A DNA stretch of 64,000 nucleotides. Source: Heterodontus francisci (taxonomy: Eukaryota). Where the stretch lies: the NCBI RefSeq assembly GCF_036365525.1, contig NC_090413.1, positions 28,968,262-29,032,261 on the forward strand. Direction: 5' to 3'. Both the position numbers and the translations under genes were made by a program. The notes beneath the pieces are model-generated. The model worked only from the letters and a program-made list of their open reading frames with translations. It searched no databases and was not told where the DNA came from. Shown one piece after another: positions 16,541 through 61,333 of the stretch. Numbering within the stretch: the stretch's first letter is position 1; each line of letters begins with the position of its first letter.

Positions 16541-16704
16541 TTACTGATGTTCAGTTCCATTGGAGACAGGTAGATTGTTCTGTACTTCATAGCTTCCGCT
16601 TCTAAGGGCAGTCCATTTCTTGTACAAGCCAAAGGTTATTGTCAAAGCTATGATTATTCCAATTGTTACAAATAAGATCACCAAAAAGCTGTTCCATGTT
16701 ACAT
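16541..16704 (-). CDS. Gene B terminal exon: transmembrane helix + cytoplasmic tail (ICAM/VCAM-like)
   Basis: Acceptor tttcacAG; (D)VTWNSFLVILFVTIGIIIALTITFGLYKKWTALRSGSYEVQNNLPVSNGTEHQ*. Confidence 0.88.
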
Positions 16705-16974
16705 CTGTGAAAACATTAATAAAAATACAAATCATTTATTTCAGGGCAATATATTTTTTATGAAACTCCTGATCATTTCCAAAATTCATAGTTTATTTGC
16801 AAGGAAATTTTTCATGGAATCTCTAGTGTGCAATATTCAACTATTTGCTGTATTTCAAGTTGTATTCTTCACCTCCTTTTATTCTCACCACACATGGACC
16901 ATTCCTGATTACCTACACCTACACTCCATGTCCCTCTAATACCTTTAATTAATTTCTTCCTTTTTTCTATTCTC

Positions 16975-17650
16975 CTCCACTGTCTCTGATTTGTGATGCT
17001 GCTTGTCTGACATCCAGTATTAGATGAGCAGAAATTTCCTGCAACTAAGTATTGAGAAGATCAAAGCCTTTGTCTTCAGTCCTCACCACAAATACTGCTC
17101 CCTACCCACCAACTCCGTCCCTCTTACAGACCACAGTCTGAGACTGAATCAAACTGTTTTCAACCTTGGCAAACTATATGACTCTGGACCAAGCTTCCGA
17201 TCCCATATTCTTTCCAACACCAAGATCACCTACTTCCACCTCCGAAACATCGCCTGTTTCTGCTCCTGCCTCAGCTCATCTGCTGCTACAACCGATGCCT
17301 TTGCCTCTCTGGACTCAAATATTCCGATGCTCTCCTGGTCAGCCTCCCAAACTGCACCCTCCTTCAACCTGAGTTCATACATACTGCTGTCCGCTTCTTA
17401 ACTCGCATCAATTCCCATTCACAAATCATCCCCCTGTGCTCGTTGACCTACAATGGCTCCTGGTCCAGCAACACCTTGATTTTTTTTTAATTGTTAGCCA
17501 TGTTTTCAGTTCCCTTCCTATTTCTGTAACTTTCTCCATCCCGACAACCCTACAGATCTTTGTGCTCCTCCAATTCTTGTCTCTTTTGGATCCCCGATTT
17601 TAATCATTCCATCACTGGCAGCATGCCTTCAGCTGCTTAAGCCTTACCTC
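16975..17650 (+). mobile_element. L2-clade LINE fragment
   Basis: MSRNFLQLSIEKIKAFVF and TYFHLRNIA resemble the L2 RT C-terminus; an L2-type tail follows at ~18420-18590. Confidence 0.7.
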
Positions 17651-17931
17651 TCTCAACAACAATAACAGCAACTTAAATTTATATAGCACCTTTAGTGTAA
17701 TAAAACATCCTAAGGTGCTTCACAGGAGCATTATTTAAAGAAAAATTTGAAACTTCTCAGGGTCAAATATGACACCAAGATTCCGAAACATCTAGTTCAG
17801 CCTCAGACAGTTGCCAGAGAGAGGAATGGCAGTCATATGATGTTAGGGCACATGGCCAAATGCTTGGTCAAAAAGGTAGGTTTTAAGGAGCGTCTGAAAG
17901 GAGGAAAGGTTGAGGGAACAAATTCCAGACC

Positions 17932-18306
17932 TTTTTTTGATTCATTTGTGGGATCTGGCATAGCTGGCTAAGCCAGCATTTGTTGCCCATCCATAATTGC
18001 CCTGAACTGAGTGGCTTGCTCGGCCATTTCAGAGTCAACCACATTGCTGTGGATCTGGAGTCACATGTTGACCAAACCACCAGGTAAGGTGATAGATTTC
18101 CTTCCCTAAAAGGACATTAATGACCAGATGGGTTTTCATGACAATATCACTGAGACTAGCTTTCAATTATTAACTATATTTATTGATTAATTAAATTTAA
18201 ATTCCATCAGCTGCCATGGTGGGTTGAACCCATGTCACCAGAAAACTAGCCTGGACTTCCAGTTTTCTAACTCAGTGACATTACCACTAGGCCACTATCT
18301 CTCCCC
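17932..18306 (-). mobile_element. Bipartite SINE: 5' tRNA-like head and UTR of the LINE at 50951 fused to its 3' tail
   Basis: Reverse complement reads head (tagtggtaatgtcact...gggttcaaccc), then ...gcaagccactcagtt|cagggcaattatggatgggcaacaaatgctgg. Confidence 0.8.
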
Positions 18307-19275
18307 AGTCTGGTTTAGCCTCAGGCAGTTCCCAGAGAAAGGAATGGCAGTGGCGAGGGAACAAGTTTGCAGCGGGGACTGAAGTCAATGACTTTGGTCT
18401 TCCCAATATTCTCTTCTACTTTATGATATTCCTTAAAACCTACTTCATTGACCAAGCTTTTGGTCACCTCTCCTAATATCTTCTTATGAGGCTCAGTATT
18501 AAATTATTTTTCATAATCACTCCTGTGAAGCACCTTGGGATGCTGATTACATTAAAGAAGTGATACAAATGCAAATTCTTGTTGTTGATATAAGGGTCGT
18601 CCATCAAACAACTTCCTGTTTTTCTTTTGAACAGGCTCCAGGATTTCACTGATACTTCCTCTGTTTGTTTGTCCCTACATTTTGCTTCCAATTCTATGAA
18701 AACTCTTGTTAATCTTCCATTTTTCAGCCAAAAACATTCACCATCCATTCTTTGCACAGATTTGACTGACCTGCTATGTTGCAGCCTCTCCTGGTTTAGT
18801 TTTACACTGTGATTGCCCCCCCTCACTATTAGAATTGAAGCCCAGCCATGTGATGCAGCTCACTGAGCTGCCAACACCCTGCACCATGACCGGCAGTGTG
18901 TGGATTCACAGCTGCAACTCCCCTGCTGCGGAGTTATTGCTCAGGCAGTCTGGGCAAACACAGAGCAGGAATAAAGTGCTTCTACACACAAAGAGAAACA
19001 AGTGGAAGGGAGTATCACTCTGGGCCATTCTTACTAATGTCCTAGAGGCCAGTTACAGAGCAGCATTGTTAGAGTCAGGGAGTAGTTTATCCATTTGTCC
19101 CATTACCAGCAAGTGTGGAGTAGAACAGGAGGAGTCTTAAAGAAAATAAATGAATAACTGAGTTAAGTAAACCGAAATGGCACTCGGGATTTATTTGGGA
19201 TAACAGAAATGCTGCTTCAATCCACAAAGGATTAATTATTTATTCTTTGCATTCTGACCAATATTACAAACTGAC

Positions 19276-19557
19276 CTTTGATCCTGATGTCCACTTCCTT
19301 CTCATCAGTTCCATATTTATTGGTAACTGTACATTTATAAATGCCTTGATGTTCTGATGTTGCGTGGGAAATATGGAGGACTCCAAGAGGACCATCCTGA
19401 ATGTTCCTGCCATTACTGGGGGCTTCCCACTTTAATGTCGGCGTGGGGTTTCCATTGGAATTGCAGATAATTGTAACCTCATCACCTTCACTGAGGGTTA
19501 CTGGAACCCCTGACACGGTTTGGTTATTTACTGATATGGTTGTATTTCGAGGTTTAT
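19276..19557 (-). CDS. Gene B Ig domain 6 exon (I/C2-set)
   Basis: cttttccAG acceptor, AAG|GTCAGT donor, 282 nt, phase 1-1; YKPRNTTISV...IICNSNGNPTPTLKW...GIYKCTVTNKYG. Confidence 0.9.
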
Positions 19558-19705
19558 CTGGAAAAGAAAAAGGAAAAGATGAAAAGAGGCAGGAAAGGCA
19601 TATCACAGGATCAGCTTGCCTCAGGTTATCACACAAACACACTGTTCACAGCGCTCAGAACAAAGGAACGTTCAAAGAGTAAACTTCCTGTAATCCATTT
19701 TTCAC

Positions 19706-19951
19706 ACAGAATGACTGAATTTACAGAGGAGTTTCTGGATCCATACGCATTGGTAACTGTGCACGTGTACAGACCACTATGCCACATTTGAACTGATGGG
19801 ATGTGGAGTATCTCTCTGCTGAGTATCTTCCCATCTTTGGTCCAGAACACCTGGGGAGCTGGGTTCCCTGCACCATGACATGTTAAATTCTGTGATTTCC
19901 CTTCAATCCAGTCTTCTTGTGCTTTAAAGATCTGTGCTTTCATTGGAGCAT
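19706..19951 (-). CDS. Gene B Ig domain 5 exon (acceptor reads AT instead of AG)
   Basis: YAPMKAQIF...LTCHGAGNPAPQVFWTKDG...SGLYTCTVTNAYG; 246 nt open; preceded by tttacAT; weak GTGAAA donor. Confidence 0.75.
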
Positions 19952-21484
19952 ATGTAAATTTCATTAGAATAAAAAATTAAAACTTGAAATTGAATAACAC
20001 GAAGCTCAAATATTCTTCAGATCTTCCTGGGTTTTTTTGGTGCTCTCCAGATGTCAGTGCTCAGAATAAAACTGACTTCTCTGTGAAAACTCAGTGTCAG
20101 CATCAAACACTCCCAGGTCAAATAAAAAGCAGGATAAAGACAGAGAAATTCTCCCTGTACTCTGCGGACAAAAGCAAAAATTCTGAGTGCCACTTTTGAG
20201 AAATCTCCAAGTGATTTCTGCTTTACTCTTTCCTGTTTCTGTATAGCTGATTGAGCACCAATCTGAGAATGGAGAAGGGTGGTCTTCGGTCAAAGGGTTC
20301 TAAGAGGAGTTTTACAGCTCTCCGGTTAGATGGAATTATTGAACTATTGTTGAAATTTTACAATGCAATATTAGTAATTAATTGATTAATAAAGTGTTTG
20401 ACATTCCTATGCTATTTTAACAAAGGTGTTAACCTGTTGAAATAAACATGATGCAGCTGATTTCTAAATAAACAATCCAATGAACACTACAAATAACAAA
20501 CATATCAATACAATATATTTATCTGTTATATTTTTAAATCACTGAGTCAAAGCATTCCATTTCAAATTACCTTCAAAACTCATATGTCAGCCTCTGGTAA
20601 TGGGAAATCCCATCGGAAGACTGTCAACAGTTACCTACTGTACCAGTCATGCCTGTATTTGTCACTTTGATTGATATTTATAACGCTGAATGACCTGTCA
20701 TGCAACGTTAGTGCGAGCCCAGTCGTGAAACTATTTTTGTGTTTGAAGTCAGCTGTGTGTAAGCCTGTGGCTCCATTACAGATTCATTGGGTGGCAATGT
20801 AGAATAAATATATTAAAAAGCCTTCAGATAGCAGCCTTTTTAAACCTCCCTGCACTGAGGCCTTTCCCCCAAAGTTGTCATTGGATTCCCCCCCTGAACG
20901 AAATGGTGCCCCCCTCAGATATTGCATCAGGTTCCATATCCTCAATATTCCTGCACAGAAAATGGGAACTAAGAATCCACAAGGCATAGGTTCCTTACAC
21001 TGCATGTTTCCACCAAACAGAACACTACACTCCAGGTTGAACTCAGGGATGCTCATTCCCATGAAGCTCTCGCTGCTCCCTGTCTCCCGGCTGTGGATTC
21101 CTCATTGCAATGTGAGCTTAAATTCCCAGTGATTCTCCATTTCTCTGCTGCATTCTCATTGACAAAGCCCTTAACCCACTTTACCCACCTGCAAATACAC
21201 CCTCTTGCCTCTGTCTCTTAGATCTATTCAAAAGTCAAATTACACAAGAATGTTAAAGAGACACACATCAGCAGTAACAACAGGAGGGTGGGCTAGATGA
21301 ACCTCTAATTTGTTTCCAGTCTGTCACTTTCTCTGCTTCTAAGTTTTTCTATTTTACCATCACAAAATCGTATCAGACAAAATAGGATCATTTCTCCCCA
21401 GAGTATTTCTCCGTGAGTGCTGGACAATTACATCAGTATTTCTGCAGTATTTATGAACTAGATGTTAGCTATTCAGTCTTCCGT

Positions 21485-22495
21485 GTTGTTGGACGTCAAT
21501 CATCTGAGCTCCAGGACATCACTGCAGGAGTTCCTCAGGGTAGTGTCCTAGGCCTAACCATCTTCATTAATGACCTCCTTCAGTCATAAGGTCAGATGTG
21601 GGATGTTCACTGATGATTGCACAATGTTCAGCACCATTCGTGACTCCTCAGATATTGAAGCAGTCCGTGTAGAAATGCAGCAAGACCCGGACAATATCCA
21701 GGTTTGGGCTGATAAGTGGCAAGTAACATTCACGCCACACAAGTGCCAGGCAATGACTAGCTCCAACAAGAGAGAATCTTACCATCTCCCCTTGACATTC
21801 AATGGCATTACCATCACTGAATCTCCCACTATCAACATCCTAGGGGTTACCATTGACCAGAAACTGAACTGGAGTAGCCATATAAATAGCGTGGCTACAA
21901 GAGCTGGTCAGAGGCTGGGAATCCTGCATTGAGTAACTCACCTCCTGACTCCCCAAAGCCTGTCCACCATCTACAAGGCACAAGTCAGGAATGTGATGGA
22001 ATACTCTCCACTTGCCTGGATGGGTGCAGCTCCAACAACACTCAAGAAACTCGACACCAAACAGGACAAAGCAGCCCGCTTGACTGGCACCCCATGCACA
22101 ACATTCACTCCCTCCACCACCGACGCACAGTGGCAGCAGTGTGTACCATCTACAAGATGCACTGCAGCAACACACCAACGCTCCTTCGACAGCACCTTCT
22201 AAACCCGCAACCTCTACCAATTAGAAGGACAAATGCATGGGAACACCACCACCTGCAAATTTCCCTCCAAGTCACACACCATCCTGACTTGGAACTATTT
22301 CGCTGTTCCTTGACTGTCACTGGGTCAAAATCCTGGAACTCCCTTCCTGACAGCACTGTGGGTGTACCTAACTCACATGTACTGCAGTGGTTCAAGAAGG
22401 CAGCTCACCATCACCTTCTCAAGGGCAATTAGGGATGGGCAATAAATGCTGGCATAGCCAGCGACGTCCACATCCCAAGAATAAATACAAAAAAA
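21485..22495 (+). mobile_element. 3' fragment of the tRNA-headed LINE family
   Basis: MFTDDCTMF and MEYSPLAW motifs; same tail as 54090-54150. Confidence 0.88.
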
Positions 22496-22943
22496 CATGT
22501 TTCTCTGTGTATCATAATCTCCATTGAAAATGCTACTGTAGCATTCTTCATCTCCAATTAGTATCCCTTGTGTTACAACAGGCCAGTGTGTCTCAGCTTC
22601 CAATTTCTCCTCGCTTGTCCATGTGGAAAAACCTGGTCTTCATTTCGTATCTCACCCAATGGTCTGGTCAGGACATGTATCTTGTTATATGGGGGACTCA
22701 GGACACATGTTCACATGATTGCACTCTGTGGTCAGTAATGGACAGTGTCTCCACACAGCCCCGTCCTGTGTTCTGCATTCTGATCAACCTTGGAGATAAC
22801 AAGAGCCACTGAAAAGCAGGATAAATGTGAGACCAATTCTGTTTGTTCCGGACTAAGAGGAGAGTTGGGATGAGAGTTTCATTGGTCTCCATTTGAAATA
22901 AAAAACCTCACTAACTATTTGTAACCAAAATGATGCAACTTAC

Positions 22944-23225
22944 ACAGGACGTGGAGGGTGTCAACCTGTTTTTTAACACGGCTTGTTGACGGATCTTGAA
23001 GTTTCAGTTCAGCCTCGCAGATGTACTGCTGTCCATCCAGCTTTGCTTCTGCATCCACAGTATAGTAGATACTGAGCCCAGTACTGCTTGATTCATTCAC
23101 TAATATGTCATTTCTGTTCTTCAGACTGAGTTGAAGTTCCCCTGAGACATTGAACACACTGCAGGTAATATTAACTGGGTTTCCTTCAGGGCTGATTGGT
23201 ACTTGGATTTCAGGGTCAGGAAAAA
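22944..23225 (-). CDS. Gene B Ig domain 4 exon
   Basis: ttttacAG acceptor, T|GTAAGT donor, 282 nt; VFPDPEIQV...NITCSVFNV...LDGQQYICEAEL. Confidence 0.88.
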
Positions 23226-23421
23226 CTGTAAAAATAATAGAGAAAAGTTGTTAGAAACACTCCCAAGCTTATCTTACAGCTGCTCAGTGTGAAAATTCAT
23301 CCTGGAGACTTGATCTGTTGTGCTGTTTTATCATTGATCCATATTACATGCCTGTGCCACACAGACACATCCAGCTACTGCACTGACTAAGGGTAGGTAG
23401 GGAACTTTAATCACTTTCTGT

Positions 23422-24887
23422 TGTTACAATCAGGTGAGGAGAGGTCGAAAGGCTCCCCTCTTGTCCCTCTCCTTGTTTGACTGCAACTGTGTATATTCCT
23501 TTTTAAACAGTGGATGTGTTTCCCAATTCAGTGAGTATTTACCCTTTATGTGCTATGATCATAAAATAATTTTTTTTTTAGTTTTTTTTGAGTTTAAACA
23601 AGAAAGAAGTTAGTTTATTTTACTTAAGAATCTAAACCCGATCAAAGTGAAAATAATAAATTACACTCCAGCTTTCACTCATTCACACAGACACACCCAG
23701 GAGAATAACACACATACAAACAGGTTATAGAGTAATGAAGAAGTGTTTTGTTGGATTAGAATCCAGAACAAATAAAAGTAATATACAGTCTGTGGGGTCT
23801 GGTAATTCAGTTGTCCTTTGGATGAATTCACGGTTCTGAAGCCTCTGGCTGGTAGAAGTGCACTTGCAGCTGGTTCAGGGTTTTCTTGGAGACAGTGATC
23901 TTGGTGGTCTTCTCCCCCTGGATTCTCTGTCTGTAGCAATGATAGACCTGGATGTCCCACAGTCGCAGACCGGTTTTGAAATTTGTAATGTTACCGGGAG
24001 AAAAGGAGAGAGAGGGATACAAACCCACTTGGGTCTTGAGCTGGTTAGCTCTCAAAGCTTGTCTGCTCCGTGAAACTAAAAATTCCGTGTAACAATAAAT
24101 TCCACGTTCACTCAGACTGGGGAGACTGTCACATGGTTCACTCAGTATTCCTTTTTTCCTTTAATGAGGTCTGAAGACTGAGAATCCCAAATCTCTCTCA
24201 GGTTATATTGTTTTAATGTTTACCCCCTGGAGATACATCTTCACTAGTGAATGCTCCAAGGTGGCTTTGGATGTCCTGCTATCAAGGATTATACTGGATA
24301 ATTTACTCAACTGTCCAAGCCATTGTTCTGGATGGGAGCTTTTGAGACATGTGTCTCCACTTCAACGTTAGGGGCGGCACAGTGGCGCAGTGGTTAGCAC
24401 CGCAGCCTCACAGCTCCAGCGACCCGGGTTCAATTCTGGGTACTGCCTGTGTGGCGTTTGCAAGTTCTCCCTGTGTCTGCGTGGGTTTCCTCCGGGTGCT
24501 CCGGTTTCCTCCCACATGCCAAAGACTTGCTGGTTGATAGGTTAATTGGCCATTATAAATTGCCCCTCATATAGGTAGGTGGGAGGGAAATATAGGGACA
24601 GGTGGGGATGTGGTAGGAATATGGAATTAGTGTAGGATTATTATAAATGGGTGGTTGATGGTCGGCACAGACTCGGTGGGCCGAAGGGCCTGTTTCAGTG
24701 CTGTATCTCTAAACTAAACTAAACGTCCTGGAATGTGAGGTATTTCAATCCAAATTGTGGTGGCCAACTTAGCTGCCGTTATTTAAATGTTAAATGTAGG
24801 ATTCTTGCTTTCCTTTTTCAAAGTTTAATGCAGGTTTCCAAATGATAAATTAAAAGTCCTCATTCAGCATAGCATGTTTTCTTGACA
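23422..24887. mobile_element. Solo LTR-like element 1 (contains an HE1 SINE)
   Basis: Starts TGTTACAATCAGGTGAGG, ends TTCTTGACA; colinear with 25061-26069. Confidence 0.7.
24370..24721 (+). mobile_element. Full-length HE1-type V-SINE
   Basis: A box tggcgcagtgg, B box ggttcaattc, V-core gtttgcaagttctccctgtgtctgcgtgggtttcctccgg, CR1/HER1-like tail, (taaac)n; TSD aacgt 24364-24368/24722-24726. Confidence 0.92.
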
Positions 24888-25060
24888 CAATGACCATCTG
24901 ATATGTGATTTTGTTAGTGGAACAGGTTTAAAAAATCTGAGATCATACTCTATCCTCACCAGATATATTCACTCCTCATCACTGAACACAACTCATTTAT
25001 CTCATTACATAATTATTTCTTTGTCAAGATGAGACATATTATTGTGTTTACAGTCCAAAC

Positions 25061-26069
25061 TGTTATGATCAGGTGAGGAGGGGTTGCAAGGGTCCCTTCT
25101 TGTCCCTCTCCTTGTTTGACCGCAACAGCGTTTATTTCTTTTTAAACAGTGGATGTGCTTAGCACTTCAGTGAGTGCTTAACCTTTTACCTTTGTTGTGA
25201 TCAGAAAAGAACCAGACAGGTTTTCTGGAGTTTAAACAAGAAAGAGGTGAGTTTATTGTACTTAAGCAAAAATCCTGATTTAGATAAAATAATAAACTAC
25301 GCTGCACTTTCACTCACACACAGGAGAATCACACAGACAAATAGATTACAGCGTGGAGAGGAATAGTTTGGGTTAGAGTCCAGAACAAATAAAATTCATA
25401 TACAGTCTGTGATGTCTGTTAATTTAGTTGTCTTCCAGCTGAATCTGGAGTCTAGATGTTCTTGGAGACAGTGGAGCAGGTGGTCTTCTTCCCGGGGGTC
25501 TTTGTCTTTGATCTTTTCCAGCCAGCAGGCAAGCTTCGAATGCCCAAGGTCACGTCGAGAGAGAGAAGGAGGGGGAAAGACACCCCCGATGGACTCTGCA
25601 CACATCAAAATCTCAGGAGCTTGTCCTTTTGCAAAAGAGTGCTGGTTTTTTACAGCAGGGGATGCAGTCACATGATTGTTCAGTGTCCTCATTAGCAATT
25701 TAATTAGATTTAAGTCTAGCAATTTTCAATTTCTCTGGTCTCATTGTTTCAATGTTTACCCCCTGGAGGTACGTCTCCACTCATGAATGCTTCAAGATGG
25801 CTTTGAAAGTCCTGCTAATGAGGGTAATACTGGATAATCTACTTGACTATTCAAGCCATTGTCCTGGATGGGAGTCTTGTTAGACATGCGCCTCCAATTC
25901 AACGTCCTGGACTGTGAGGTATTTCAATGCAAATTTTAGTGGCCAACTTGGCTGGCAATTTTTTTAAAAGTTCAATGTCGGATTCCAGTTTTCCTTTTTA
26001 AAAGTTTAATGTTGGTTTCCAACCGATTAATTACAAAGTCCTCATTCAACACAGCATGTTTTCTTGACA
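25061..26069. mobile_element. Solo LTR-like element 2
   Basis: TG...CA termini; near-match 4-bp flanks aaac/acac; diverged relative of 23422-24887. Confidence 0.7.
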
Positions 26070-26386
26070 ACACTATTCAGTCACTTGTTTCATACACCTT
26101 TATGATCCTGGAATATCAAGTGTCAGTAATATTCCCTTATAATCAGGAAATATCGGGTGCCTCTAACACTTTCTCATGATCTTGGAATACCAAGTGTCAC
26201 TAAGACATCTTAAGCTGCTTCTCTTTGAGTATCTGTGAATATGCAAATATTTCAAAAACTTCCTAACTTGTCACTCAACGGAAGGGATTTTATTGTTTAA
26301 AGTAAACCTGACATGCTGCAATTTTGACTATCTTGAACTATCAGAATGCTATCAAATCATAATGCCTCCACAACCAGAATCCTTAC

Positions 26387-26680
26387 CAAACACCTCAATG
26401 AAGACGCTATCATTCTTTGGTGGAACTGATGGATATTCCTCAAAATCTGCTGTACAGACGACTTCCATCAGACCAGCCACCTGTGGTTTCCATGTTGTTG
26501 TTGTTCGGACAGTATTAGAATTTGGCCTTGTTGTAACTGAATTCAGTTCTTTACCATCCTGAAACCACCTGACTCTCATCTTCTCAGCAGGATAGACATT
26601 TGGGACCTCACATGTTAACGTGGCCTCTTGCTTCACTTCTATGGGCCTCTTGTCAAGGATTCGAGGTGGATCCAGAAAAG
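26387..26680 (-). CDS. Gene B Ig domain 3 exon
   Basis: tgttgcAG acceptor, G|GTAAGG donor, 294 nt; SFLDPPRI...LTCEVPNVYPAEKMRVRW...VVCTADF. Confidence 0.9.
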
Positions 26681-28240: not shown

Positions 28241-28524
28241 CTTGCAAATACTTTGTTAACCCATTCAAACTAAGCTTTGTGCACGGCCTTGCTGGTTAAA
28301 GGATTTGCAGTAATTTACTGAAACACTTTAGACAAATGAGAAAACTGCATATTTGAAGTGGGTCCAAGATGAACAATTCTTATCCAACACATTTTGTGTT
28401 ATGGATAAAACAGGAGCTAAATCAGAAGATTCCCTAAATTGCTTCCCACTGTTTATTCTCTACAAATTATAGATAATTAACCCATTCTTAAAAAGAGAAC
28501 ATTTCTTGTTCAAGTGGAACTTAC

Positions 28525-28839
28525 AGTAAGTTTGCAGAGTCACAGAGGAGTTTGTGATTGGTTTTGTGGTGTTTAAACCCAAGTCCACCTCTGCCAAGCA
28601 GGTGTACTCCTGTCCATCACCTGACATACTTGCAGTGAATTGGAAGATGTTCCTCAGTCTTTTATCATCATCCGGGAAACCTTCTTCTCCTGTGAAATTC
28701 CTCTGAACAATCTCACTCCCTCTCAGCCATGTGAGTTTGAGTTTATTGTTTGGATAGACCCTCGGACCAATACACTCCAGACTATATGTCTTGTTAACTT
28801 CCAGCACTTCAGGAGGTGATGTAATGTTTAACTCTCGAT
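28525..28839 (-). CDS. Gene B Ig domain 2 exon
   Basis: ttttaacAG acceptor, T|GTAAGT donor, 315 nt; NRELNITSPPEVLEVNKTYSLECIGPRVYPNNKLKLTW...DGQEYTCLAEV. Confidence 0.92.
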
Positions 28840-29229
28840 CTGTTAAAAGAAGTTAACAGGAATCATTGAAACAATATGTATCTGAACACAACCAGTTTAC
28901 TCCTCTTTCCCCTCAACATATGTACATTTCACTCAGCAAGCAAATCGTCCATGTGTGCAGTAAAAGTTATCCCAAAAAAATGCCTGTGGTCCAACAAATC
29001 CCATTAATGTTCTTTTTCCATGATTTTCCTCAATCTACACTAAACCAGCAGCATTTTTCTAGGATCCCGATTAAAAGCACTGAAATTAGCACTGATAGTT
29101 TAATTTTTTAGTCATTGCCATCCGATAACAGAATGATACAGCAGTTTCTGTGCTATAAATCTCTATGAGAAGGAGGCTATTCTGCCCATCCTGCCTGTGC
29201 TGGTCCTCTGTACAACCATCCTAACCAGG

Positions 29230-34282: not shown

Positions 34283-34558
34283 TGTATACTGTGACCACCT
34301 TTTTCTCCTCCTTCAGCTGACGACCGTCTGATTTACAGATTACACTGCATGGTGCTGCAAAATCCCATTTCTGCACACTCGGGAAATAATCTGTGGACCA
34401 GTTAGTGCCATTTCTTCTGTTTGGATGTATCCCTGATTTATATTCCACTGTCATTATCGGTTCTGCACATGTTGTACTGCAGTTCACCTCTAAAGAGTCT
34501 CCAAATTCCACAGCTGAGGGGTTTGTGTCAATCCAAACCTCAAATCCAGTTACACTTG
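34283..34558 (-). CDS. Gene B Ig domain 1 exon (ICAM-type 4-Cys N-terminal domain)
   Basis: ccctgacAG acceptor, A|GTAAGT donor, 276 nt; SVTGFEVWIDTNPSAVEFGDSLEVNCSTTCAEPIMTVE...W...APCSVIC...VTVY. Confidence 0.9.
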
Positions 34559-36500: not shown

Positions 36501-37319
36501 CACTGCACCCCTTGCTGTTACTGCATCAATATGATATATCAGCCTATTTCCATGCAACATCCTTTAAGATATAAACATTTCTCATCTCAAATATTGGCTT
36601 CTCTTGTTCGCACATCAAATATTTTCCATCAAAATCAACTTAATAATGACAATCAAAGTGCTCTGAAAGGGGTAGATCTTACCGACAACCTGCACTGAAC
36701 TGTTGTTTGAGGAGGTGACATCCCAGATTAGTGGAAGAAACTAGTTGACATAGAATCAGAGAATAGGGAAATTGTTTCTATAGGCACTCACTGAGCATCC
36801 AACAAGCACTGTTCCTCAGATGTGATGCTCACAGGAGGGGACAGCTGCTTTATTCTATCTTAGACCAATTGAAATAACCCTTAGTAACTCCAGACTGAGG
36901 CCTGCCCTCTAAGTGGACCATGCACCTAAATGTTGGGCAGGAAATCCCGGAGCATCTGTCAGCCTCAGCCTTGGAAAGCCACAGCCAGAAGGCTTTGAAT
37001 GCTTTAAATCATCCTGCGGTTAGGGAGGAAGTGGTGAAAAATTGAAACACAAAACTGCCTGGATTAACTTTCACCTGCCCTTGGACCTCCGCAGAACCCT
37101 TTCACATTATTGAAAAGGTTATACTGGGTCCAAGCCTGCTACAGCCACAAGCCCAGTTGAATCCAGTGCGGAAATCACAGGGCAATGGGAGCAAAATTCA
37201 CATAAAAGGATTTTGCCCATTTTCCACGTCCATTATTTAGGAGATTGTCAGTTTCCAGATGTAGAACTGAACTGCATACTCTCAGGTAATAAACTGTGAG
37301 GCCCACGTGAGAATGGCAT

Positions 37320-37560: not shown

Positions 37561-39140
37561 CCCAGTGCAATGGACATAAATATGTAGGAAACCAACATCT
37601 TCTGTGACCCTCACGCTAAAAAGCCTTCAATATATCACCCTTTTGTTTCCTCATCTTCCTACTTTTAACATAGGAATAAAAGAATTTCTATTGAGAAATC
37701 CCTTGTCCGATTCATCAATTTACCTTCCCAAATACTCACAAAAATATGAACGATTCAGTAACTTTTCAAAGTAAAACTTGTTTTGGAAAATTACAATTAC
37801 TGACATTGGTGATGCAATCACTCTGATTTGATATTTTTGAAAAAATAATTACACATTTGAAAATATCTTCAGATGATACAAATCCTTATTCACATATACA
37901 ATCCTGTTCATACATCCTGTTCAAGCATGCCAAAATTAGACAAATATCTCTTAATATTTTTACAGGTAGCATTTACATATTTCTTTATATTAAACATTCC
38001 AGCTAGCACATGCTCAGAAAACAGTAGCACATGAAAGCTCAAAATTTATATCTAAAAATATGTATAAAAAAAGATACTTGTTCACATTATCGAAGCATGC
38101 TATTCATCAGCGATCACATAAATGATTATTTTACAGTGTCAAATCTCAATTCCAGTTTATTAGTGAGAAACAAAGTGAGCCTCCCTGACCTTCATGAGTT
38201 TCAAGCAATCATGTATTAGATTGTTTTTCAAAGGGAATTTAAACTTGCCCTAAAAAGCAAGACCATCTGTGGATAAAAGGTTAGAATTTTTTTTAAATGC
38301 TGTGAGTAAAATTTTAAGTGCAATCAGTCAAATTCCTACTTAAAAGGAATTCAACAACAAGATTTATTTATATAGCACCTTTAATGTAGTAAAACATCCC
38401 AAGGTGTTCATCAAGGAGCGTTATCAAACAGATTTGAGGAGGTATTAGGACAGACGGCCAAATGTTTGGTCAACGAGGTAGGTTTTAAGGAGCATCTTAT
38501 GACCATAATATGATGGAATTTTACGTTAAGTTTGAAAGCGATGTAGTTCAGTCAGAAACTAGGGTCTTAAATCTAAGCGAAGGAAACTATGAAGGTATGA
38601 GGGACAAGTTGGCTTTAGTGGATTGGGAAACTACTTTAAAAGGTATGACGGTAAACATGTAACGGCTATCATTGAAAGAACTAATACATCATTTACAACA
38701 AAAATACATTCCTTTAATGCACAAAAACCCAGCAAGGAAAGTGTTCCGATCGTGACTAATGAAAGAAATCAAGGATTGTATCAGAGCAAAGGAAGAGGTA
38801 TATAAAGCTGCCAAAAAGATGGTAAGCCTGAGGATTGGGAGCATTTCAAAAGTCTGCAAAGGAGGATCAAGAGAAAGATTAAGAAAGGGAAAATAGAATG
38901 AGAGTAAACTAGCAAGCAACATGAAAAGGGACTGTAAAAGCTTCTATAGGTATGTAAAAAGATCAGCAAAGACAAATGTGGGTCCATTACAAGCGGAGTC
39001 AGGAGAATTTATAATGGGGAATAAGGAAATGGCAGAGAAACTAAACAAATACTTTGTGTTTGTCTTCACGGAGGAAAATACTAAAAACCTCCCAGAAATA
39101 ATGAAGAATCAAGGGACTAGTGTAAACGAGGAACTGTAAG

Positions 39141-43288: not shown

Positions 43289-43401
43289 TTATTTTCCTGT
43301 TTTCCAGTCATTCCTCTTCAAGTAATAAATGATGGCTCCTGTTGCAAGGACAAATATGGCCACCACTGATACACTTACTGCAGCTATGATAGCTGTCATA
43401 T
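43289..43401 (-). CDS. Gene A terminal exon: TM helix + truncated cytoplasmic tail
   Basis: cctcacAG acceptor; (D)MTAIIAAVSVSVVAIFVLATGAIIYYLKRNDWKTGK*; the frame stays open past the stop (KLQNTK...ESKL*) to 43214. Confidence 0.8.
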
Positions 43402-46461: not shown

Positions 46462-46740
46462 CTTTGATTGTGATGTCCACGTTCTTCTCATCAGCTCCAA
46501 GTTTATTAGCAGCTGTACATTTATATATTCCATTATTTTTTGATGTGGCTTTTGAAATATGGAGGTCTCCTGGAGGCTTAATCACAACATTGCTTTTTTT
46601 GGGATATTCCCATTTCAGTGTTGGCTGTGGGTTTCCTTGGGAGTCACAGATTAATATAATGCTGTCACCATTACTGAAATGTACTGGGGACTCTGAGATA
46701 ATTTTCTTATTTGCTGATATAGTTGTACCTATAGGTTTAT
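46462..46740 (-). CDS. Gene A Ig domain 3 exon (homologue of gene B domain 6); not in the ORF track
   Basis: cttttgcAG acceptor, 279 nt open: YKPIGTTISANKKIISESPVHFSNGDSIILICDSQGNPQPTLKWEYPKKSNVVIKPPGDLHISKATSKNNGIYKCTAANKLGADEKNVDITIK; donor AAG|GCCAGT. Confidence 0.88.
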
Positions 46741-50320: not shown

Positions 50321-50429
50321 GCATGCCACTCTCCCTTTTCTTCCTTGGGCACTAACATACTTTTCCTGATCTAAAAGTAATAACTATACAAGTACCCCTT
50401 CACAATGGGCAGTTACTCAGAAACTAACA

Positions 50430-53900: not shown

Positions 53901-54164
53901 ATCCATGGGAACACCACCACCTGCAAGTTCCCCTCCAAGTCACACACCATCCTGACTTGGAACTATATCGCCATTCCTTCACTGTCGCTGGGTCAAAATC
54001 CTGGAACTCCCTTCCTAACAGCACTGTGGGTGTACCTACCCCACATGGACTGCAGCGGTTCAAGAAGGCAGCTCACCAGCACCTTCTCAAGGGCAATTAG
54101 GGATGGGCAATAAATGCTGGCCTGGCCAGTGATGCCCACATCCCATGAATGAATTTTTAAAAAA
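50951..54164 (+). mobile_element. Near full-length single-ORF non-LTR retrotransposon (AP-endonuclease + RT; CR1/L2 group) with a tRNA-like 5' head
   Basis: A box tagcgtagtgg, B box ggttcgaatcc; ORF from ~51246 (MAQQATQL) through EN (TNIWGL, PDIVILMES, GDFNVH, SDH) and RT (NYRPISLLS, QFGFR, ALDIKAAF, QGSVLGP, FADD); one frameshift and 4 stops. Confidence 0.9.
50960..51035 (+). promoter_or_regulatory. Type-2 Pol III internal promoter (A box/B box) at the LINE 5' end
   Basis: TAGCGTAGTGG matches TRGCNNARYGG; GGTTCGAATCC is a perfect B box. Confidence 0.7.
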
Positions 54165-54372
54165 CACATTTCACCATTAACACCAACAGTGTTTTCATGG
54201 CATCCCTGTGAAGCTTCTGTGCCTCCTTAATCCCAATGAGCTAATTCTTAGCTTGTTCTTTTCAGAACAGAAGATTACAGTGCAATCCAATAATTCAATG
54301 ATAAATGCCCCTTATTGCTCCAAGCATAACACAGAATATGAGTCAAGAAAAAATTGTTCAAGTGGAACTTAC

Positions 54373-54687
54373 AGTAAGTTTGCAGAGTCACAGAGGAGTT
54401 TGTGATTGGTTTTGTGGTGTTTGAGCCCAAGTCCACCTCTGCCAAGCAGGTGTACTCCTGTCCATCATCTGACATACTTGCAGTGAATTGGAAGATGTTC
54501 CTCAATCTTTTATCTTCATCCGGGAAACCTTCTTCTCCTGTGAAATTCCTCTGAACAATCTCACTCCCTCTCAGCCATGTGAGTTTGAGTTTATTGTTTG
54601 GATAGACCCTCGGACCAATACACTCCAGACTATATGTTTTGTTAACTTCCAGCACTTCAGGAGGTGATGTAATGTTTAACTCTCGAT
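54373..54687 (-). CDS. Gene A Ig domain 2 exon
   Basis: Canonical AG/GT, 315 nt; 6 nt differences from 28525-28839. Confidence 0.92.
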
Positions 54688-54900
54688 CTGTTAAAAGAAG
54701 TTAACAGGAATCATTGAAACAATATGTATCTGAATACAACCAGTTTACTCCTCTTTCCCCTCAACATATGTACATTTCACTCAGCAAGCAAAAAGTCTCT
54801 GTGTGCAGTAAAAGTTATCCCAAAAAAATGCTTGTGGTCCAACGAGCCCCATTAATGTTCATATAAACATTGATTTTAAACTTGCTGGGAAGAGAAGGCC

Positions 54901-55373
54901 TGTTACAAGGGCTCCCAGACAATTAGCTGAAAAGCATTTGCATACTAACAGACAGTACTTGTGGAGACAAAAGGACCATTCCCTGACACATTCAACCCAA
55001 AATGGATTTTGATAACCAGACATTGAAGGTGTAAGGAAGATCATTCCAGAGACTGCTAAGGTGATACAATCCGCAAAAGCCAGGACTGGTTAAACCAGCT
55101 GGTCACCTGACTAACTGGCTGGTCCAGGGTTTTCTGAACTAGCCACAGAGTTTTTGAACTCAGAAAGAAAGACTGTTTTCTCCTTGAGTGAGAAGACCTG
55201 TCCTATGAAAACCTGTCTGGCTGGTCTCTTTGCCTTATAATTGGAAAGTGGTGAACAAGGATTCACCAAGGGGGAGCTAAAAAAACGGTGTGTTTCAAAT
55301 TCAACCCTGTTATGGTAAGACCAGGTAAAGGCTGAGAGAGAACCCTAGACCCCTTTTTTACCTGGTCGTAACA
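54901..55373. mobile_element. LTR-like remnant
   Basis: TGTTAC...GTAACA termini; the reverse-complemented end resembles the 5' end of the LTRs at 23422/25061; no TSD seen. Confidence 0.45.
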
Positions 55374-55519
55374 CTATGGACTTCCTTCCCCTCCAAATAT
55401 CCACTGTCACGCAATACTATATGTGTACAGCAAAAAGAAGTTTGTCACAACCACATATGTACCTTATGGTTTGTTATCCCTCACTAAGAGCAGCACACTG
55501 ATTCGATTTGGAGACTTAC

Positions 55520-55777
55520 TGTATACGGTTATCGTTTCCCTCTGCAACCTACTTTCTGATGAGCATTTTACATAACATGCCACTGAGATAGACCACGATT
55601 GGATACTTGAGGAAGAAACTGCACGCCATTGAGTACCATGTGTTAAATTATGTTTTATTCCTTCGATTATTATTGTTTCTGTTGCACATGTTGTACTGCA
55701 GTTCACCACCAAAGAGTCTCCAAATGCCACAGCCAGGGGGTTTGCATTGATTTGTATATCAAATCCAGCCATGATTT
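55520..55777 (-). CDS. Gene A Ig domain 1 exon (ICAM-type 4-Cys domain)
   Basis: ctcggcAG acceptor, A|GTAAGT donor, 258 nt; EIMAGFDIQINANPLAVAFGDSLVVNCSTTCATETIIIE...W...VACYVKC...ITVY. Confidence 0.9.
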
Positions 55778-55865
55778 CTGCCGAGTAAACAAATGACAGT
55801 AATTATAGGAACATGGAAAGCATTAAGAGCATGAACTGTTCTGAGTAAATCCCCAAGCCTTTTAA

Positions 55866-55996
55866 ACAGAAAAATACTGCAGATGCTGGAAATCTTAAAT
55901 AAAAACATAAAATGCTGGAAATACTCAGCATGTCTGGCAGCATCTGTTGGCAAAGAATTAACATTTCAAGTTCATGGCCTTTCATCAGAACTGGAC
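55866..55996 (-). mobile_element. Short Penelope-related terminal fragment with a hammerhead-like core
   Basis: Reverse complement: agttCTGATGAaaggccatgaacttGAAAtgttaatt. Confidence 0.6.
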
Positions 55997-56099
55997 AAGA
56001 TCATTGCTTGGCTCTTTTATTTCTATCTCAAATTACTTCAGTGCATCTCTGCCCAAAATTTTTATTACACTTGGCAGAATTATGAATACTCAATGGAAG

Positions 56100-56820
56100 G
56101 ATGGCATGGCAGGAACCTAGGGGAGAAGAATGCACAACATCACTCATTCAGACCTCCTACCCCTTCTAGGGGCAATGAAGACAGGAAGAGCAGATTCCTG
56201 GGAGTGGGTGGCATGAAGTTACCAAGGCATCAAAAATAGATCTCCAGCACCTCAATGGTCCTCTCATTCATGTCTGATAGCTGCATGGGCCTCTTCTGCC
56301 TATGTTTGGGCTAGCCAAAGTCAAGTCATCATCCCAGAGGTGTCACACATTATCTGCACATTTATACAGTGAAATTCCTTCCTGTTATCATGGATGAGAG
56401 GGTGCTCTATGGACACCTTCAATGCTGTGTGGACGTCATTGATGTACTTTGGGGAAGCCAGGATCCCCATAGAACTGTATGGCCCTTTTTCTCTCTGCTG
56501 CCTGGTTATGTGACAAAGCTAAAGAAATGTGTTGCTCTGCTGCACAGGGCAGTGAACTGGTAAATACATGCTTGTACTGCTCACTGGTTTATTGTAGAGA
56601 TTTCCCTGTAGCTGCCTGAAAGGGGCCTCAGAGATAAAAATTGAGGACAGCGGTGAACTTCATTGCCACAGTGAGCATATTGCTGGCAAATGAGTGTGGA
56701 TTGAGATCTTCATGTAACAGCTCACAGAGATGGCCAATTGCAGCTTTTGAGAAATGAACACTAATGATGCAGAGCCTGTCAGTGAACCTCATAGGACCTG
56801 GTCTGCCTATAAATTCTTTG
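56100..56820 (-). mobile_element. PIF/Harbinger transposase remnant
   Basis: MLTVAMKFTAVLNFYL*GPFQAATG ... GFPKV ... NRKEFHCINVQIMCD. Confidence 0.7.
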
Positions 56821-57689
56821 TTGAGGTTACTATCTGTGGGCTGTATCTTCTGTCATTATGCCTGATTCTCCATCGCTGTAACTTGTGCTGCTCTACTTCC
56901 TCCATAGTATTGGTGTAGACTGGAATCCTGAGGAGAAAAGCCATACTTGATCTGTGGGGATGTTGGTGAGGGAGGGGTAGAGGGTGGGGGTCCATAAATC
57001 ATTGGGTGGTCTGACCCAGGAGGAGACAGTGAAACTTTCGTACAGGTCTCAGTAGGAAATCAAGCAAATAAGGTTGAAAAAATGTTTCCAAATTGCGGAA
57101 ATTAATAAGCAAAGTTTGCAGCCGCTTCAAAACTCACAAATGCCTCACTTCTACTTTGATCAAGTGATGCATGTTACATCTCAAACAACTAGGCGGTGAA
57201 GGGTAGAACTGGAGCCTAGTCTTTATACACTTACAAGCTCCTATTCACAAAAAGAAAGACTTGCATGTATATAGTGCCTTTCACCTCCAAACCAACCACC
57301 ACAGGTTTAGCCTGCTCCTATATATATGAATCCCCCAGTTAATGCCATCACGTGAATACAATTAAACACACAATTAGTGTACACAATTAACACTGCACCT
57401 CATAAATCTGGATCTGACTGACCCAAAGTACAATATGGCATAAATCCAGGAAACTTGTAACTACATGGACCTTAGTTTAATCATATTCATTGTATGCATG
57501 CGGTTTCAAGTGAGAGAGATAGACCAAATATAAACCATACCAGTTTCTCCCAAAGCACTTCATTGAACACCATTATCTTTAACATCTTTGTAGTGTTGGA
57601 ATGGCACAGAAATGAATTTTAGCAAGGAACATGGAATTAAGAAATTTGCACTGCTTTCCACCTTTATATCATTTCCCCCATGTTTTGTT

Positions 57690-58031
57690 TATTTTTTATT
57701 ATTTTATTTAGAGATACAGCACTGAAACAGGCCCTTCGGCCCACCGAGTCTGTGCCGACCATCAACCACCCACTTATACTAATCCTACATTAATCCCATA
57801 TTCCTACCACATCCCCTCAATTCCCCTACCGACACTAGGGGCAATTTATAATGGCCAATTTACCTATCAACCTGCAAGTCTTTGGCTGTGGGAGGAAACC
57901 GGCGCACCCAGCGGAAACCCACGCGGTCACAGGGAGAACTTGCAAACTCCGCACATGCAGTACCCAGAATCGAACCTGGGTCACTGGAGCTGTGAGGCTG
58001 CGGTGCTAACCACTGCGCCACTGTGCCGCCC
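57690..58031 (-). mobile_element. Full-length HE1-type SINE
   Basis: Reverse complement of the 24370 type. Confidence 0.9.
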
Positions 58032-58910
58032 TATTCTTGCAATCATTTTGGTCCTTTCCATGATCTGCCTGGTGCAATCCACTAGGTGTATTTGCATACT
58101 TGCACCTGTAAGCCAGCAACACTGGGCCAGTTTCAGGACTCATTATTAGCTATCGCTAGTCCTACAATAGACCCACAATTCAGTTGGAAGGGGCACCATT
58201 TCTGCCTAAATTAGTGTGAAATCCCTGTAACCTTCAATCCAATTTCTATCCGTCCCTTTTTGAATGTATTAGTCACTCTTTTTTAGGCATCTCATCCACT
58301 CCAGCAAGGACAGAGGTGGTGGCTCAGGTGAAACTGATGTAAAGAAAGGTGAGTTGGTTGCAGAAGTCTGAGATGCAGGAGGGATTCTGCTGTTCTACAT
58401 TGCTGTAAATGGAAAAATTGTTGCTGGGGTTTTTCCTCAATTACCCTATCCAGAAATTCAGTTTATGTGTTGATCAGTCTTGATGTGAAGAACTTTCTAA
58501 CACCTGTCCTAAATTAGCCTCTACTGTATCATACTGTCAGCTTAATGGGAGTGCTCCAAGCCTGCTTTGTTAATAAAATCACTTCCTTTCAAGGCTGAAA
58601 TCTCAGGCTTCATGACTCTTTCCTCATATCTCAGTCTGACATTATCATTCTTCCAGATTAACACTAAACTTCCTGCAGGAAAGATTTGTCCCTGGTCCTG
58701 TGTTCAATATCTCATTAGATCACATCCTTTCAAAATCCTAACTGTTTTCTTAATCATGACTCCCTAAGCCCACAGGCAGTGCCTCAGTTTAACATCTTAT
58801 CCAAATAACAACTTTCTGGACAATGCAGCCCTCCTTCTGTATGGTAATTAATGTTAACCAAGATCAGGGGTATATAAACTTTCAAAGCAGAGAGGTGTAT
58901 CACACTAATG

Positions 58911-59626
58911 CAGAGGTCTGCAACCTTTTTTTTACCTGAAGAGCCTTTTTTATAAAAAAAGTTGCCTAAAATAAAAACTGTTGAGAGCCGCAAGACAAAA
59001 ATTCAGCATTTCTAAACCAAATACATGACAAATTGCTAAGTGTCTCTGGTAGAATGCTTAATTTGCATATATATGTATCAGTAGGAAAAAAATCGAAATT
59101 AAAATAGACCTAACTCTGAATTATCGCATTTTTGACTTTTTTTTTACCAGAATTGTGTCAGTAAAGTCATCTTTAAAACAATTTTTAACTTAAGATGTGT
59201 ATAACTAAGACAATTTTTTCAGGTATTGATTGTTGTGATGTTTAAAAAAAAGCTTCTAATAGCACAATCAGAATAATTAATCCTCTCAGCTATGTTAGGA
59301 ACTATAATGGTTTCAGCCATTAAACCTGGCCTTTGAATCCAAGGCATTATCTATAAATACAGTGTAACTCTACCACTCAAAGAGCTTTATAGGTTTATTT
59401 AGAGAACAATTATATTTTTCATTAAAATAATAATTTGGAACTGTAAAGTGCAGCATAACGATTAGCTTTTTATCACCACAATAAAAACACAGCTCTTACT
59501 TTGCTTGACTTAATTATTTTTAGGCTTTTTTCATGTTAATGTGATCCAACTGGAAAAGGCTGGAAGCCACAAATGAAATGTTAAAGAGCCACATGCGGCT
59601 CCGGAGCCGCAGGTTGCCGATCCATA
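58911..59626. mobile_element. Non-autonomous hAT (Charlie-like) DNA transposon
   Basis: Imperfect TIRs cagaggtctgcaacct / aggttgccgatccata; 8-bp TSD cactaatg / cactagtg. Confidence 0.75.
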
Positions 59627-60339
59627 CACTAGTGAATGGACTGCAATGACTGAAGCTCTTTTAGCCAAGCAGAAATATGGCTGACCCAATATTATAGTAT
59701 TCTCACATTTAAAAATACACTTTCTATTTGTTGCTACAATTAATTTCATTTGTTGCTTTCTTTGTTTATTTCACCTCAGGAACTCAGCATCGGTAACAAC
59801 CTTGAGTGTAAACCTCCTCTACTTCTAGAATTGAGAACAATGATCATATTGGCTCTAATGGGGCAACTAAATAAATGTACAATGAATTAACATTCAAATA
59901 TAGACTGATAAATATATTTTACCCAAATCAGCGTATTATACAACAGAGCACCTTGGCGATCAAATATATAACTGGAAGATTATAAAATAGCTACCACTGA
60001 GATTTACACCTACAGACTAACACTGTGAGTATTGACAATAAATTCCTCAGCTGTACCTGTCACTGTGGAATACAAAAGTTTGATGCACAAATTCTCCCTT
60101 GAGATATTTAAAATAATAACAGCATTTTATGCTTTTTATCTCAGCCTCTCAAGAAATGGCAGTAAACATCAATCCAACATCTGTTCGTATTAAAACAGAA
60201 TTTCTCAATTCAACAAATGAATAATGAGAAAAATATTTGTTACACAAAATACTTTACAGGTCACTGCTTGTGTTTAATGGTCTCAATGAGATGAATATTA
60301 TCGGAACATACCGTGCTGCTTTGTTATTCCAACATATGA

Positions 60340-60600
60340 AAGATCATAGAATCTTACAGTACAGAAGGAGGCCATTCGGCCCATCGTGTCTGCACCAGCT
60401 TTCTGGAAAATCCAATTAATGCCACTTCCCAGCTCTTTGCCGATTGCAATTTTTCCCTCTTCAAGTATATATAAAATTTTCCTTTGGAGGTTACTTTTGA
60501 ATCTCCTTCCATCACTCTTTCAGGCAGTGCAGTCCAGATCACCACTCCCTGTGTAAAAATAGGATCTCCTCATCTCCCCATTGGTTATTTTGCTAATTTG
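60340..60600 (-). mobile_element. CR1 3' fragment
   Basis: WTALPERV motif and CR1 tail. Confidence 0.7.
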
Positions 60601-61266
60601 TTTGGTTTATTTAATACTTCATTTAAAGTTTATTACATTTTTAATTATTCTGTGGTTCTATCTCATAAAACATGATCCTCGTCATGTACTTAATTAAACA
60701 GTTAGTGTACCAACTTCTCTGCACCGATACTACCAAAACCCGCTTGTCCATTCCGGCGCAGGAGCCGCTGACGCGAAAATCGGAATCGTATAAAATTCTG
60801 CAGCTGGCACACAGGGTGCCCAAGCAACTTAAAGCAGAGGAGCTGGCCCACTTATCCAGATCCCCATGATCCGAACCAGAGAAAAACTCCTGTTCACTAA
60901 AATACCCAAGATCTAGATCAATGTATGGTGAAGTATTGAATAAAACCTGAGAGAGAGCTGAGGCTGATAGTTAATTGAGAGGAGTTCAGGGAGAACTCGG
61001 CGATTTTCAATCGTTGGAGAGCAAGTGTTGTTAGAAATGCAATCAAAATTTCGAAAAACTTTTTTTTAAAAACTAAGTGAGCTTCAGAAAATGCAGCTGT
61101 ATTTAATACACGCCGGTAGACAGACAGTTAGCAATACAAAGTCACCTCTACCAACCAGTGCTGGAACTGCTAAACTGTTATCAAATGTACAGTAAACCGC
61201 AAAAACCACCAGCAACACTAACACAGACTGAATACTGTATAAACACTGAGCAAACATGCAATTTAC

Positions 61267-61333
61267 CTGTTACAGTAAAAAAACAGGTATAAAAGCAAAT
61301 ATATCCCAGCCGCGAAGTGAGTCTGAAACCCAT
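61267..61333 (-). CDS. Leader (signal peptide) exon of ICAM/VCAM-like gene A
   Basis: MGFRLTSRLGYICFYTCFFTVT + G|GTAAAT, phase 1, in frame with the domain 1 exon giving ...VTEIMAG/FDIQ; nearby sequence is relatively CpG-rich. Confidence 0.75.

What the first reader, a model, noticed from the sequence alone, without database searches (positions are those of the whole stretch)
16541..61333. ICAM-like cluster that may work as one modular locus with a shared leader and interchangeable phase-1 cassettes
Seen: only one convincing leader exon was found (61267-61333). It splices in frame to domain 1 of gene A (…VT-E-IMAG/FDI) and equally to domain 1 of gene B (…VT-A-SVTG/FEV). No hydrophobic phase-1 leader was found between 34559 and 43200. 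All nine Ig exons are phase 1-1 and there are three phase-1 TM exons. Inference: alternative splicing could give 3-Ig, 5/6-Ig or chimeric receptors with different N-terminal domains and tails from one promoter. Caveat: phase-1 symmetry is the norm for Ig exons, and I may have missed B's leader.
Basis: partly seen in the sequence, partly recalled or inferred. Interest (0 to 1): 0.7.

Follow-up and report, generated by a model that had tools for sequence, protein, structure and literature searches.

The report
Two shark adhesion genes spliced together
In a horn-shark cluster of ICAM-type cell-adhesion genes, one copy lacks the start segment that its sister copies keep, and transcript contigs show the gene in front splicing into it, which likely yields a long double-headed receptor besides the short one; the proposed system of one leader choosing between interchangeable heads was not seen.

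Summary
The window is the 5' end of a seven-unit ICAM-like tandem array in the horn shark. Six of the seven domain-1 exons in the array have their own leader. The window's B copy lacks about 9 kb, including leader and promoter, that its two sister copies keep; the junction is near 37,260. Spliced contigs (4 runs, one sample label) join leader 61333 to A's domain 1 in 4 of 4 runs and to B's domain 1 in none. They join A's third Ig exon to its own TM exon (3 of 4, partly inferred) or directly to B's domain 1 (2 of 4), skipping the TM exon. This is the usual conjoined-gene pattern. It predicts a 343-aa 3-Ig receptor or an 843-aa 8-Ig receptor with two different ICAM_N heads (45% identical), resembling bivalent VCAM-1. 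RefSeq's automatic models already contain the fusion. Gene models from 5 of 6 other sharks also have two heads, but near-identical ones. Chimeric read-through is supported; the shared-leader cassette is not. Moderate interest.

The parts
61267..61333 (-). Leader exon L1 of gene A (22 codons, phase 1)
   Evidence: single DNA match in the genome; spliced to A1 in contigs
60312..60384 (-). Alternative first exon used by RefSeq isoforms X1/X4; not hydrophobic, probably minor or spurious
55520..55777 (-). A1: ICAM_N domain 1, A type (4 Cys, Glu in IIEG)
   Evidence: Pfam PF03921 E 4e-11
54373..54687 (-). D2 exon of A, inside a ~500 bp tract (54354-54860) 97% identical to B's (28506-29012), with unrelated flanks
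46462..46740 (-). A3 (D6a) Ig exon, GC donor; the point where splicing goes to A's TM exon or to B1
43289..43401 (-). A TM/terminal exon; tail cut by a stop where other sharks' orthologues have Tyr
   Evidence: contigs with 0 differences in 3 of 4 runs
37255..37265 (.). Junction of the ~9 kb segment missing from this copy (it holds B's leader and promoter in both sister copies); 3-nt microhomology
34283..34558 (-). B1: ICAM_N domain 1, B type (4 Cys, Glu in TVEY); internal second head in the long form
   Evidence: PF03921 E 2e-7
28525..28839 (-). B D2 Ig exon
26387..26680 (-). B D3 Ig exon (best Pfam match PF21146, ICAM-1/3/5)
22944..23225 (-). B D4 Ig exon
19706..19951 (-). B D5 Ig exon without an AG acceptor; skipped in RefSeq models of this copy
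19276..19557 (-). B D6 Ig exon
16541..16704 (-). B TM/tail exon with GSYEV motif; ends early at a stop where the next copy has Glu
2921..3033 (-). Duplicate of A's TM exon with an extra stop; marks the start of the next repeat unit

Best explanation
The window holds the first two genes of a tandem array of ICAM-like genes; the second gene lacks the leader and promoter segment that its sister copies keep, and transcripts from the first gene either end at their own membrane-anchor exon or splice past it into the second gene, likely giving a short one-headed and a long two-headed receptor from one promoter. Shown: the missing ~9 kb, own leaders in the other six units, and the joins L1->A1, sister-leader->B1 and A3->B1 in contigs. 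Inferred: (1) the missing segment is a deletion in this copy, because the two sister copies and Heptranchias keep A and B as separate genes; (2) the choice is between polyadenylation after A's TM exon and read-through splicing across 11.9 kb; (3) the long product is the 843-aa L1-D1a-D2-D6a-D1b-D2-D3-D4-D6-TM protein; (4) both heads bind integrins through their conserved Glu, so the long form is bivalent like VCAM-1 and carries a Tyr-motif tail that the short form has lost.
For: Array map: 7 D1 exons and 6 leaders in 464 kb. The window unit aligns to both sisters on each side of a gap of ~9.0 / 8.5 kb that contains their leader; no leader remnant lies between 34559 and 43288. The flanks differ from the sisters by 1.2-3.6% (7.9% on the left against the third unit), so this is a distinct copy. 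Loose ends at B1's acceptor match A3's end exactly in X3 and X4 and the sister leader's end in X1, X2 and X4. In X4 the A3 contig runs on for 28 further letters and no contig of A's TM exon is listed. Intron contigs after A3 in X2, X3 and X4 match the window copy with 0 differences, against 1-24 for the identical-exon paralogue (9 pieces; 1 further piece cannot tell them apart). RefSeq models XP_067877408-411 have A3->B1 and XP_067877412 has D2->B1. The reading frame is open over 843 aa; the AlphaFold model has eight beta-strand domains and one TM helix (mean pLDDT 76). Four Cys and the Glu are present in 35 of 35 D1 rows. The skip-last-exon pattern is the commonest conjoined-gene pattern (PMC2953495, passages).
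Against: All RNA evidence is contigs from one sample label and one study, and RefSeq probably used the same runs (inference). The two A3->B1 records carry 30 letters on the short side, one under the tool's 31-letter bridging rule (they are complementary: long side B1 in X3, long side A3 in X4). A3->B1 is not seen in X1 or X2. A3 and B1 each have a 100% identical copy downstream, so the join cannot be placed by exon sequence alone; in X1 two intron contigs differ from the window by 1 and 3 letters, and the single difference matches that paralogue. No contig spans the whole long transcript. The B copy also has a dead D5 acceptor and an early stop in its tail, which fits decay. No protein or binding data.
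Confidence: 0.72

Rival explanations
1. B in the window is a decaying, promoterless duplicate; the read-through is leakage past a weak GC donor and terminal exon and makes no selected protein.
For: Leader loss, D5 acceptor loss and an early tail stop all fall in this copy. Read-through is seen in only 2 of 4 runs.
Against: The frame is intact over all used exons. Codon differences from the sisters are 9 nonsynonymous: 8 synonymous and 7: 6, below the roughly 3:1 expected without selection (general knowledge; small, unpolarised counts). The D5 acceptor loss is shared with a sister that keeps its promoter. Models in 5 of 6 other sharks have the same D6a->D1 architecture.
Confidence: 0.15
2. One reading: the single leader is spliced alternatively to A1 or directly to B1 (26.7 kb), giving receptors with interchangeable N-terminal domains.
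For: The join would be in frame and B1 has a good acceptor. Contigs can lose real joins: B4/B5-type D1 contigs are present, but no join to their own leader is listed.
Against: No L1 end at B1's acceptor in 4 of 4 runs. The L1-A1 contig is unbroken in 4 of 4. 0 of 15 horn-shark RefSeq proteins mapped has L1->B1. Six of 7 D1 exons have their own leader.
Confidence: 0.06
3. The gap is an assembly error or private haplotype, or the A3->B1 join comes from the identical orphan A3 copy and the third unit's D1 further down the array.
For: The exon copies are 100% identical; the array is highly repetitive; no DNA run was listed to check the junction.
Against: The flanks carry private substitutions and indels. 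Intron contigs fit the window copy. The orphan A3 has no upstream leader, A1 or A-type D2.
Confidence: 0.07

Closest known systems
ICAM family and the human ICAM1/3/4/5 cluster (19p13.2; PMC10215618, passages)
   Same: ICAM_N first domain, tandem cluster, Ig-exon skipping isoforms; best whole-region structural matches are ICAM-5 D1-D4 (TM 0.67) and ICAM-1 D1-D5 (TM 0.64); a CDC37_N exon lies ~0.5 Mb away on the same contig (the human linkage is recalled).
   Different: Seven units here, recently duplicated (95-98% identical blocks), with a homogenised D2 and a long form with two D1 heads.
VCAM-1 (bivalent 7-Ig form, sites in domains 1 and 4; PMC2120002 and PMC2119914, abstracts)
   Same: A second D1-like domain at position 4, and a splice choice that would switch between one and two binding sites.
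   Different: The acidic residue is Glu (ICAM type), not the Asp of QIDS; the second head comes from a neighbouring gene of another D1 clade; the switch is terminal exon versus read-through, not cassette skipping.
Conjoined / read-through genes (PMC2953495, passages)
   Same: [quoted passage not shown]
   Different: The downstream first exon is physically absent, so read-through is probably B's only route to expression.
Clustered protocadherins / Dscam-type cassette loci (recalled)
   Same: Tandem homologous exons in one orientation.
   Different: No shared constant region and no mutually exclusive choice seen; each unit but one is a whole gene.

Membership tests
ICAM family | N-terminal ICAM_N Ig domain | tested here: met
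   PF03921 above cut-off for A1 (42.8 bits) and B1 (31.1 bits)
ICAM family | Four cysteines in domain 1 | tested here: met
   At least 4 Cys in 35 of 35 D1 rows; that this defines the family is recalled
ICAM family | Integrin-binding Glu equivalent to ICAM-1 E34 | tested here: met
   A1 Glu aligns with the Glu of ICAM-1, -2, -3 and -5. B1 Glu sits the same distance from the Cys as in A1, but its own alignments to ICAMs are weak or shifted by one. E34 from PMC2119914 (abstract).
ICAM family | Type I membrane protein with tandem Ig domains | tested here: met
   Leader, 3 or 8 Ig domains, one TM helix
ICAM family | Synteny with the mammalian ICAM cluster | tested here: inconclusive
   CDC37_N at C43:28.24 Mb; the Ribosomal_L4 search found only a hit on C13
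ICAM family | Binds beta-2 integrins | not testable with these tools
   No assay
VCAM-1 | Asp in a QIDS motif in domains 1 and 4 | tested here: not met
   Glu in IIEG / TVEY; no VCAM-1 chain among the PDB sequence hits
Conjoined (read-through) gene | Spliced transcript joining exons of two same-strand neighbours | tested here: met
   A3->B1 in 2 of 4 contig sets, 30 letters on the short side
Shared-leader cassette locus | One leader spliced to alternative first domains | tested here: not met
   0 of 4 runs, with limited sensitivity
Shared-leader cassette locus | Cassettes lack their own leaders | tested here: not met
   6 of 7 D1 exons have one

The most novel reading that the evidence does not exclude
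Sharks have repeatedly built bivalent ICAMs by joining tandem units, and the horn-shark form is a recent hetero-bivalent receptor whose two heads bind different integrins, with a tissue-regulated polyadenylation/read-through switch setting valency and tail; the phase-1 exons and homogenised D2 may let transcripts run on into further units, giving a combinatorial set of integrin ligands and a living model of how VCAM-1 gained its second site.
Probability: 0.15. Interest if true: 0.7.

Novelty: new variant of a known kind. Interest (0 to 1): 0.38.

Why it matters
It is a clear, recent case of gene fusion by loss of the downstream promoter and leader, with intact sister copies beside it as the ancestral state. 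It points to an undescribed expansion of ICAM-like integrin ligands in sharks in which two-headed forms recur, an architecture otherwise familiar from VCAM-1. The mechanism itself (read-through between tandem genes) is known, and the fused models are already in RefSeq, so the advance is interpretive.

Tried and rejected
No run was on record as RNA; X1-X4 are labelled 'RNA?' and I treat them as transcript-derived because their contigs join at exon boundaries. The first lay (19 kb) was crowded by repeats: its joint and loose-end tables were cut, so A3->TM is inferred from contig geometry (30 extra letters before the TM exon), not read. Contig depths were not used to rank isoforms. SNP assignment at 34497 (A3-joined contig has the window/third-unit allele, leader-joined contigs the second-unit allele) is suggestive only, since contigs collapse variants. 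DNA searches with the L1 leader missed the other leaders, and my early idea that five B-type D1 exons were leaderless or formed one 15-Ig gene was rejected. Leader candidates at 37972 and 37806 were rejected. No extra Ig exon remains were found between A's D2 and TM or between TM and B1. CpG o/e is 0.11-0.49 in 14 windows across 34.9-43.3 kb against 0.67-0.72 at L1 and the two sister leaders, but two other real leaders score 0.39-0.43, so this is weak. The ICAM_N genome search found 4 matches, all on C43, and missed three known D1 exons, so it cannot exclude other loci. No paper describing this cluster was found; supplements were not searched. Earlier scan findings: none.

Full report
Setting. 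The window is G000:C43:28968262-29032261 of a 6.0 Gb genome. Proteins 100% identical to its exons are named Heterodontus francisci and lie on a contig of the same length as C43, 31,884,378 bases. I read 300 kb below and 100 kb above the window. Negative coordinates continue the window's numbering.

Observation. The minus strand carries L1 (61333-61267), A1, D2, A3, a TM exon (43401-43289), then B1 (34558-34283), D2, D3, D4, D5, D6 and a TM exon (16704-16541), plus a broken copy of A's TM exon at 3033. All nine Ig exons are phase 1-1. Two sites are non-standard: A3 has a GC donor, and D5 has AT in place of its AG acceptor. A leader scan found nothing convincing between 34559 and 43288, while recovering 6 of 6 known leaders elsewhere.

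The array. The region holds seven D1 exons: A1, B1 at 34558, -13309 and -60466, a C type at -103871, and B' at -140333 and -190931. Exact mapping of 15 horn-shark RefSeq proteins (a 16th cluster member, an unrelated 35-residue fragment, mapped nowhere) places leaders at 61333, -10174, -57346, -98037, -138893 and -189267, each 1.4-5.8 kb before its D1. Only the window's B lacks one. The unit from A's 3' end to B's TM exon occurs three times, in blocks mostly 95-98% identical. The window's copy matches its sisters up to 37260 and again just after, skipping about 9.0 kb (second unit) or 8.5 kb (third unit) that contain their leader. The junction has a 3-nt microhomology, and the flanks have private changes (1.2-3.6% from the second unit). 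Heptranchias models keep a 3-Ig A and a separate B with a homologous leader (P0051, P0012), so loss in this copy is the simplest history (inference).

Transcripts. Four contig sets from one sample label were laid. A contig of 515-526 letters holds A1 plus about 234-245 further letters; where both pieces are listed (X2, X3, X4) these are the leader and 5' UTR, and the X1 contig has the same length as X2's. It does not break at the leader's donor. At B1's acceptor the loose ends match the sister leader (X1, X2, X4), A3's last letters (X3, X4) and the unspliced intron of a B' copy (X4); none matches L1. Contigs of A's TM exon with 30 extra upstream letters occur in X1-X3 and match the window copy exactly; none is listed for X4. 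So A transcripts end at the TM exon or read through to B1 across 11,903 bases, giving 343 or 843 residues. RefSeq models XP_067877408-411 have this read-through, XP_067877412 has D2->B1, and all skip D5.

Limits. The A3->B1 records have 30 letters on the short side, one under the tool's bridging rule. A3 and B1 have identical copies at -41976 and -60466. Intron contigs after A3 favour the window copy in X2-X4 (0 differences versus 1-24 in 9 pieces; 1 piece uninformative), while two X1 intron contigs differ from the window by 1 and 3 letters. The negative for L1->B1 is weakened by a failed control: B'-type D1 contigs are present, but no join to their own leader is listed. RefSeq is probably not independent of these runs.

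Protein. A1 and B1 are both ICAM_N, 45% identical, and fall in two well-supported D1 clades (100/100; 35 rows from 25 proteins, chosen from the 33 compared). Four Cys and a Glu after the second Cys are present in 35 of 35 rows; A1's Glu aligns with that of ICAM-1, -2, -3 and -5. ICAM-1 E34 and VCAM-1 D40 are the integrin-binding residues, and 7-domain VCAM-1 is bivalent through domains 1 and 4 (PMC2119914, PMC2120002; abstracts read). The 843-aa model has eight strand-rich domains and a TM helix (pLDDT 76, pTM 0.40). It is best superposed over long stretches on ICAM-5 and ICAM-1, although generic multi-Ig proteins rank higher by E-value. A's own tail stops where other sharks have a Tyr motif, while the B tail keeps GSYEV, so read-through would change both valency and tail (inference). 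Alpha-L-type leukocyte integrins are reported from cartilaginous fish onward (PMC8359198, passages).

Other sharks. Of six other species with an A1-type model, five have A3-type domain followed by a second D1 (Carcharodon, Cetorhinus, Mustelus, Scyliorhinus, Pristiophorus); Heptranchias does not. In those five the second head is 95-100% identical to the first and groups by species, so it arose by internal duplication or homogenisation, unlike the horn shark's A+B pair. These are automatic models whose RNA support I could not check.

Comparison and verdict. The locus is an ICAM-family tandem array, and the A/B pair behaves as a conjoined gene in the commonest pattern (PMC2953495, passages). It is not a shared-leader cassette locus. 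ICAM clusters and Ig-exon skipping are known (PMC10215618, passages). Six searches found no paper on this shark cluster (listings only, supplements unseen). New variant of a known kind; interest 0.38.

Noticed in passing
window 54354-54860 and 28506-29012; all seven D2 exons: The D2 exon is about 95-99.7% identical at DNA level across all units, including gene A, while D1 exons differ by up to 55-60% in protein. In A versus B the identity covers only ~500 bp around the exon, which suggests gene conversion.
   Followed up: partly
window 9553-12024 (+) and 8439-9566: An 823-codon open frame with a reverse-transcriptase match (PF00078) and a 1.1 kb inverted copy of its 3' end, 99.7% identical; looks like a young Penelope-type retroelement (class recalled).
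   Followed up: partly
window 43289-43291 and copies at 2921 and -44874: A's tail ends at a stop where orthologues in Heptranchias, Pristiophorus and Scyliorhinus continue with a Tyr motif; the read-past sequence is still similar.
   Followed up: yes
C43, window-extended -41976 to -42254: Orphan A3 exon 100% identical to the window's, with the same GC donor, between the second and third units.
   Followed up: partly
C43, window-extended -180133 to -180330: A second, 76% identical TM/tail exon 0.7 kb after the TM exon of the B4 unit: a possible alternative tail.
   Followed up: no
C43, window-extended -103871 and -140333: The C-type and B'-type D1 exons are about 72% identical while the introns after them are about 92% identical: exon replacement or fast change in the binding domain.
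   Followed up: no
window 19951 and -28197: The D5 acceptor loss (AG to AT) is shared by the first two B copies; RefSeq models of both skip D5.
   Followed up: yes
window 60312-60384: RefSeq's isoforms X1/X4 start at a non-hydrophobic exon in intron 1, which would lack a signal peptide.
   Followed up: partly
P0019, P0020, P0048, P0057: Manta and basking-shark models show internal D3-D4-D6, D2-D3-D4 or D6 repeats (up to five D6), so ectodomain length varies widely in this family.
   Followed up: no
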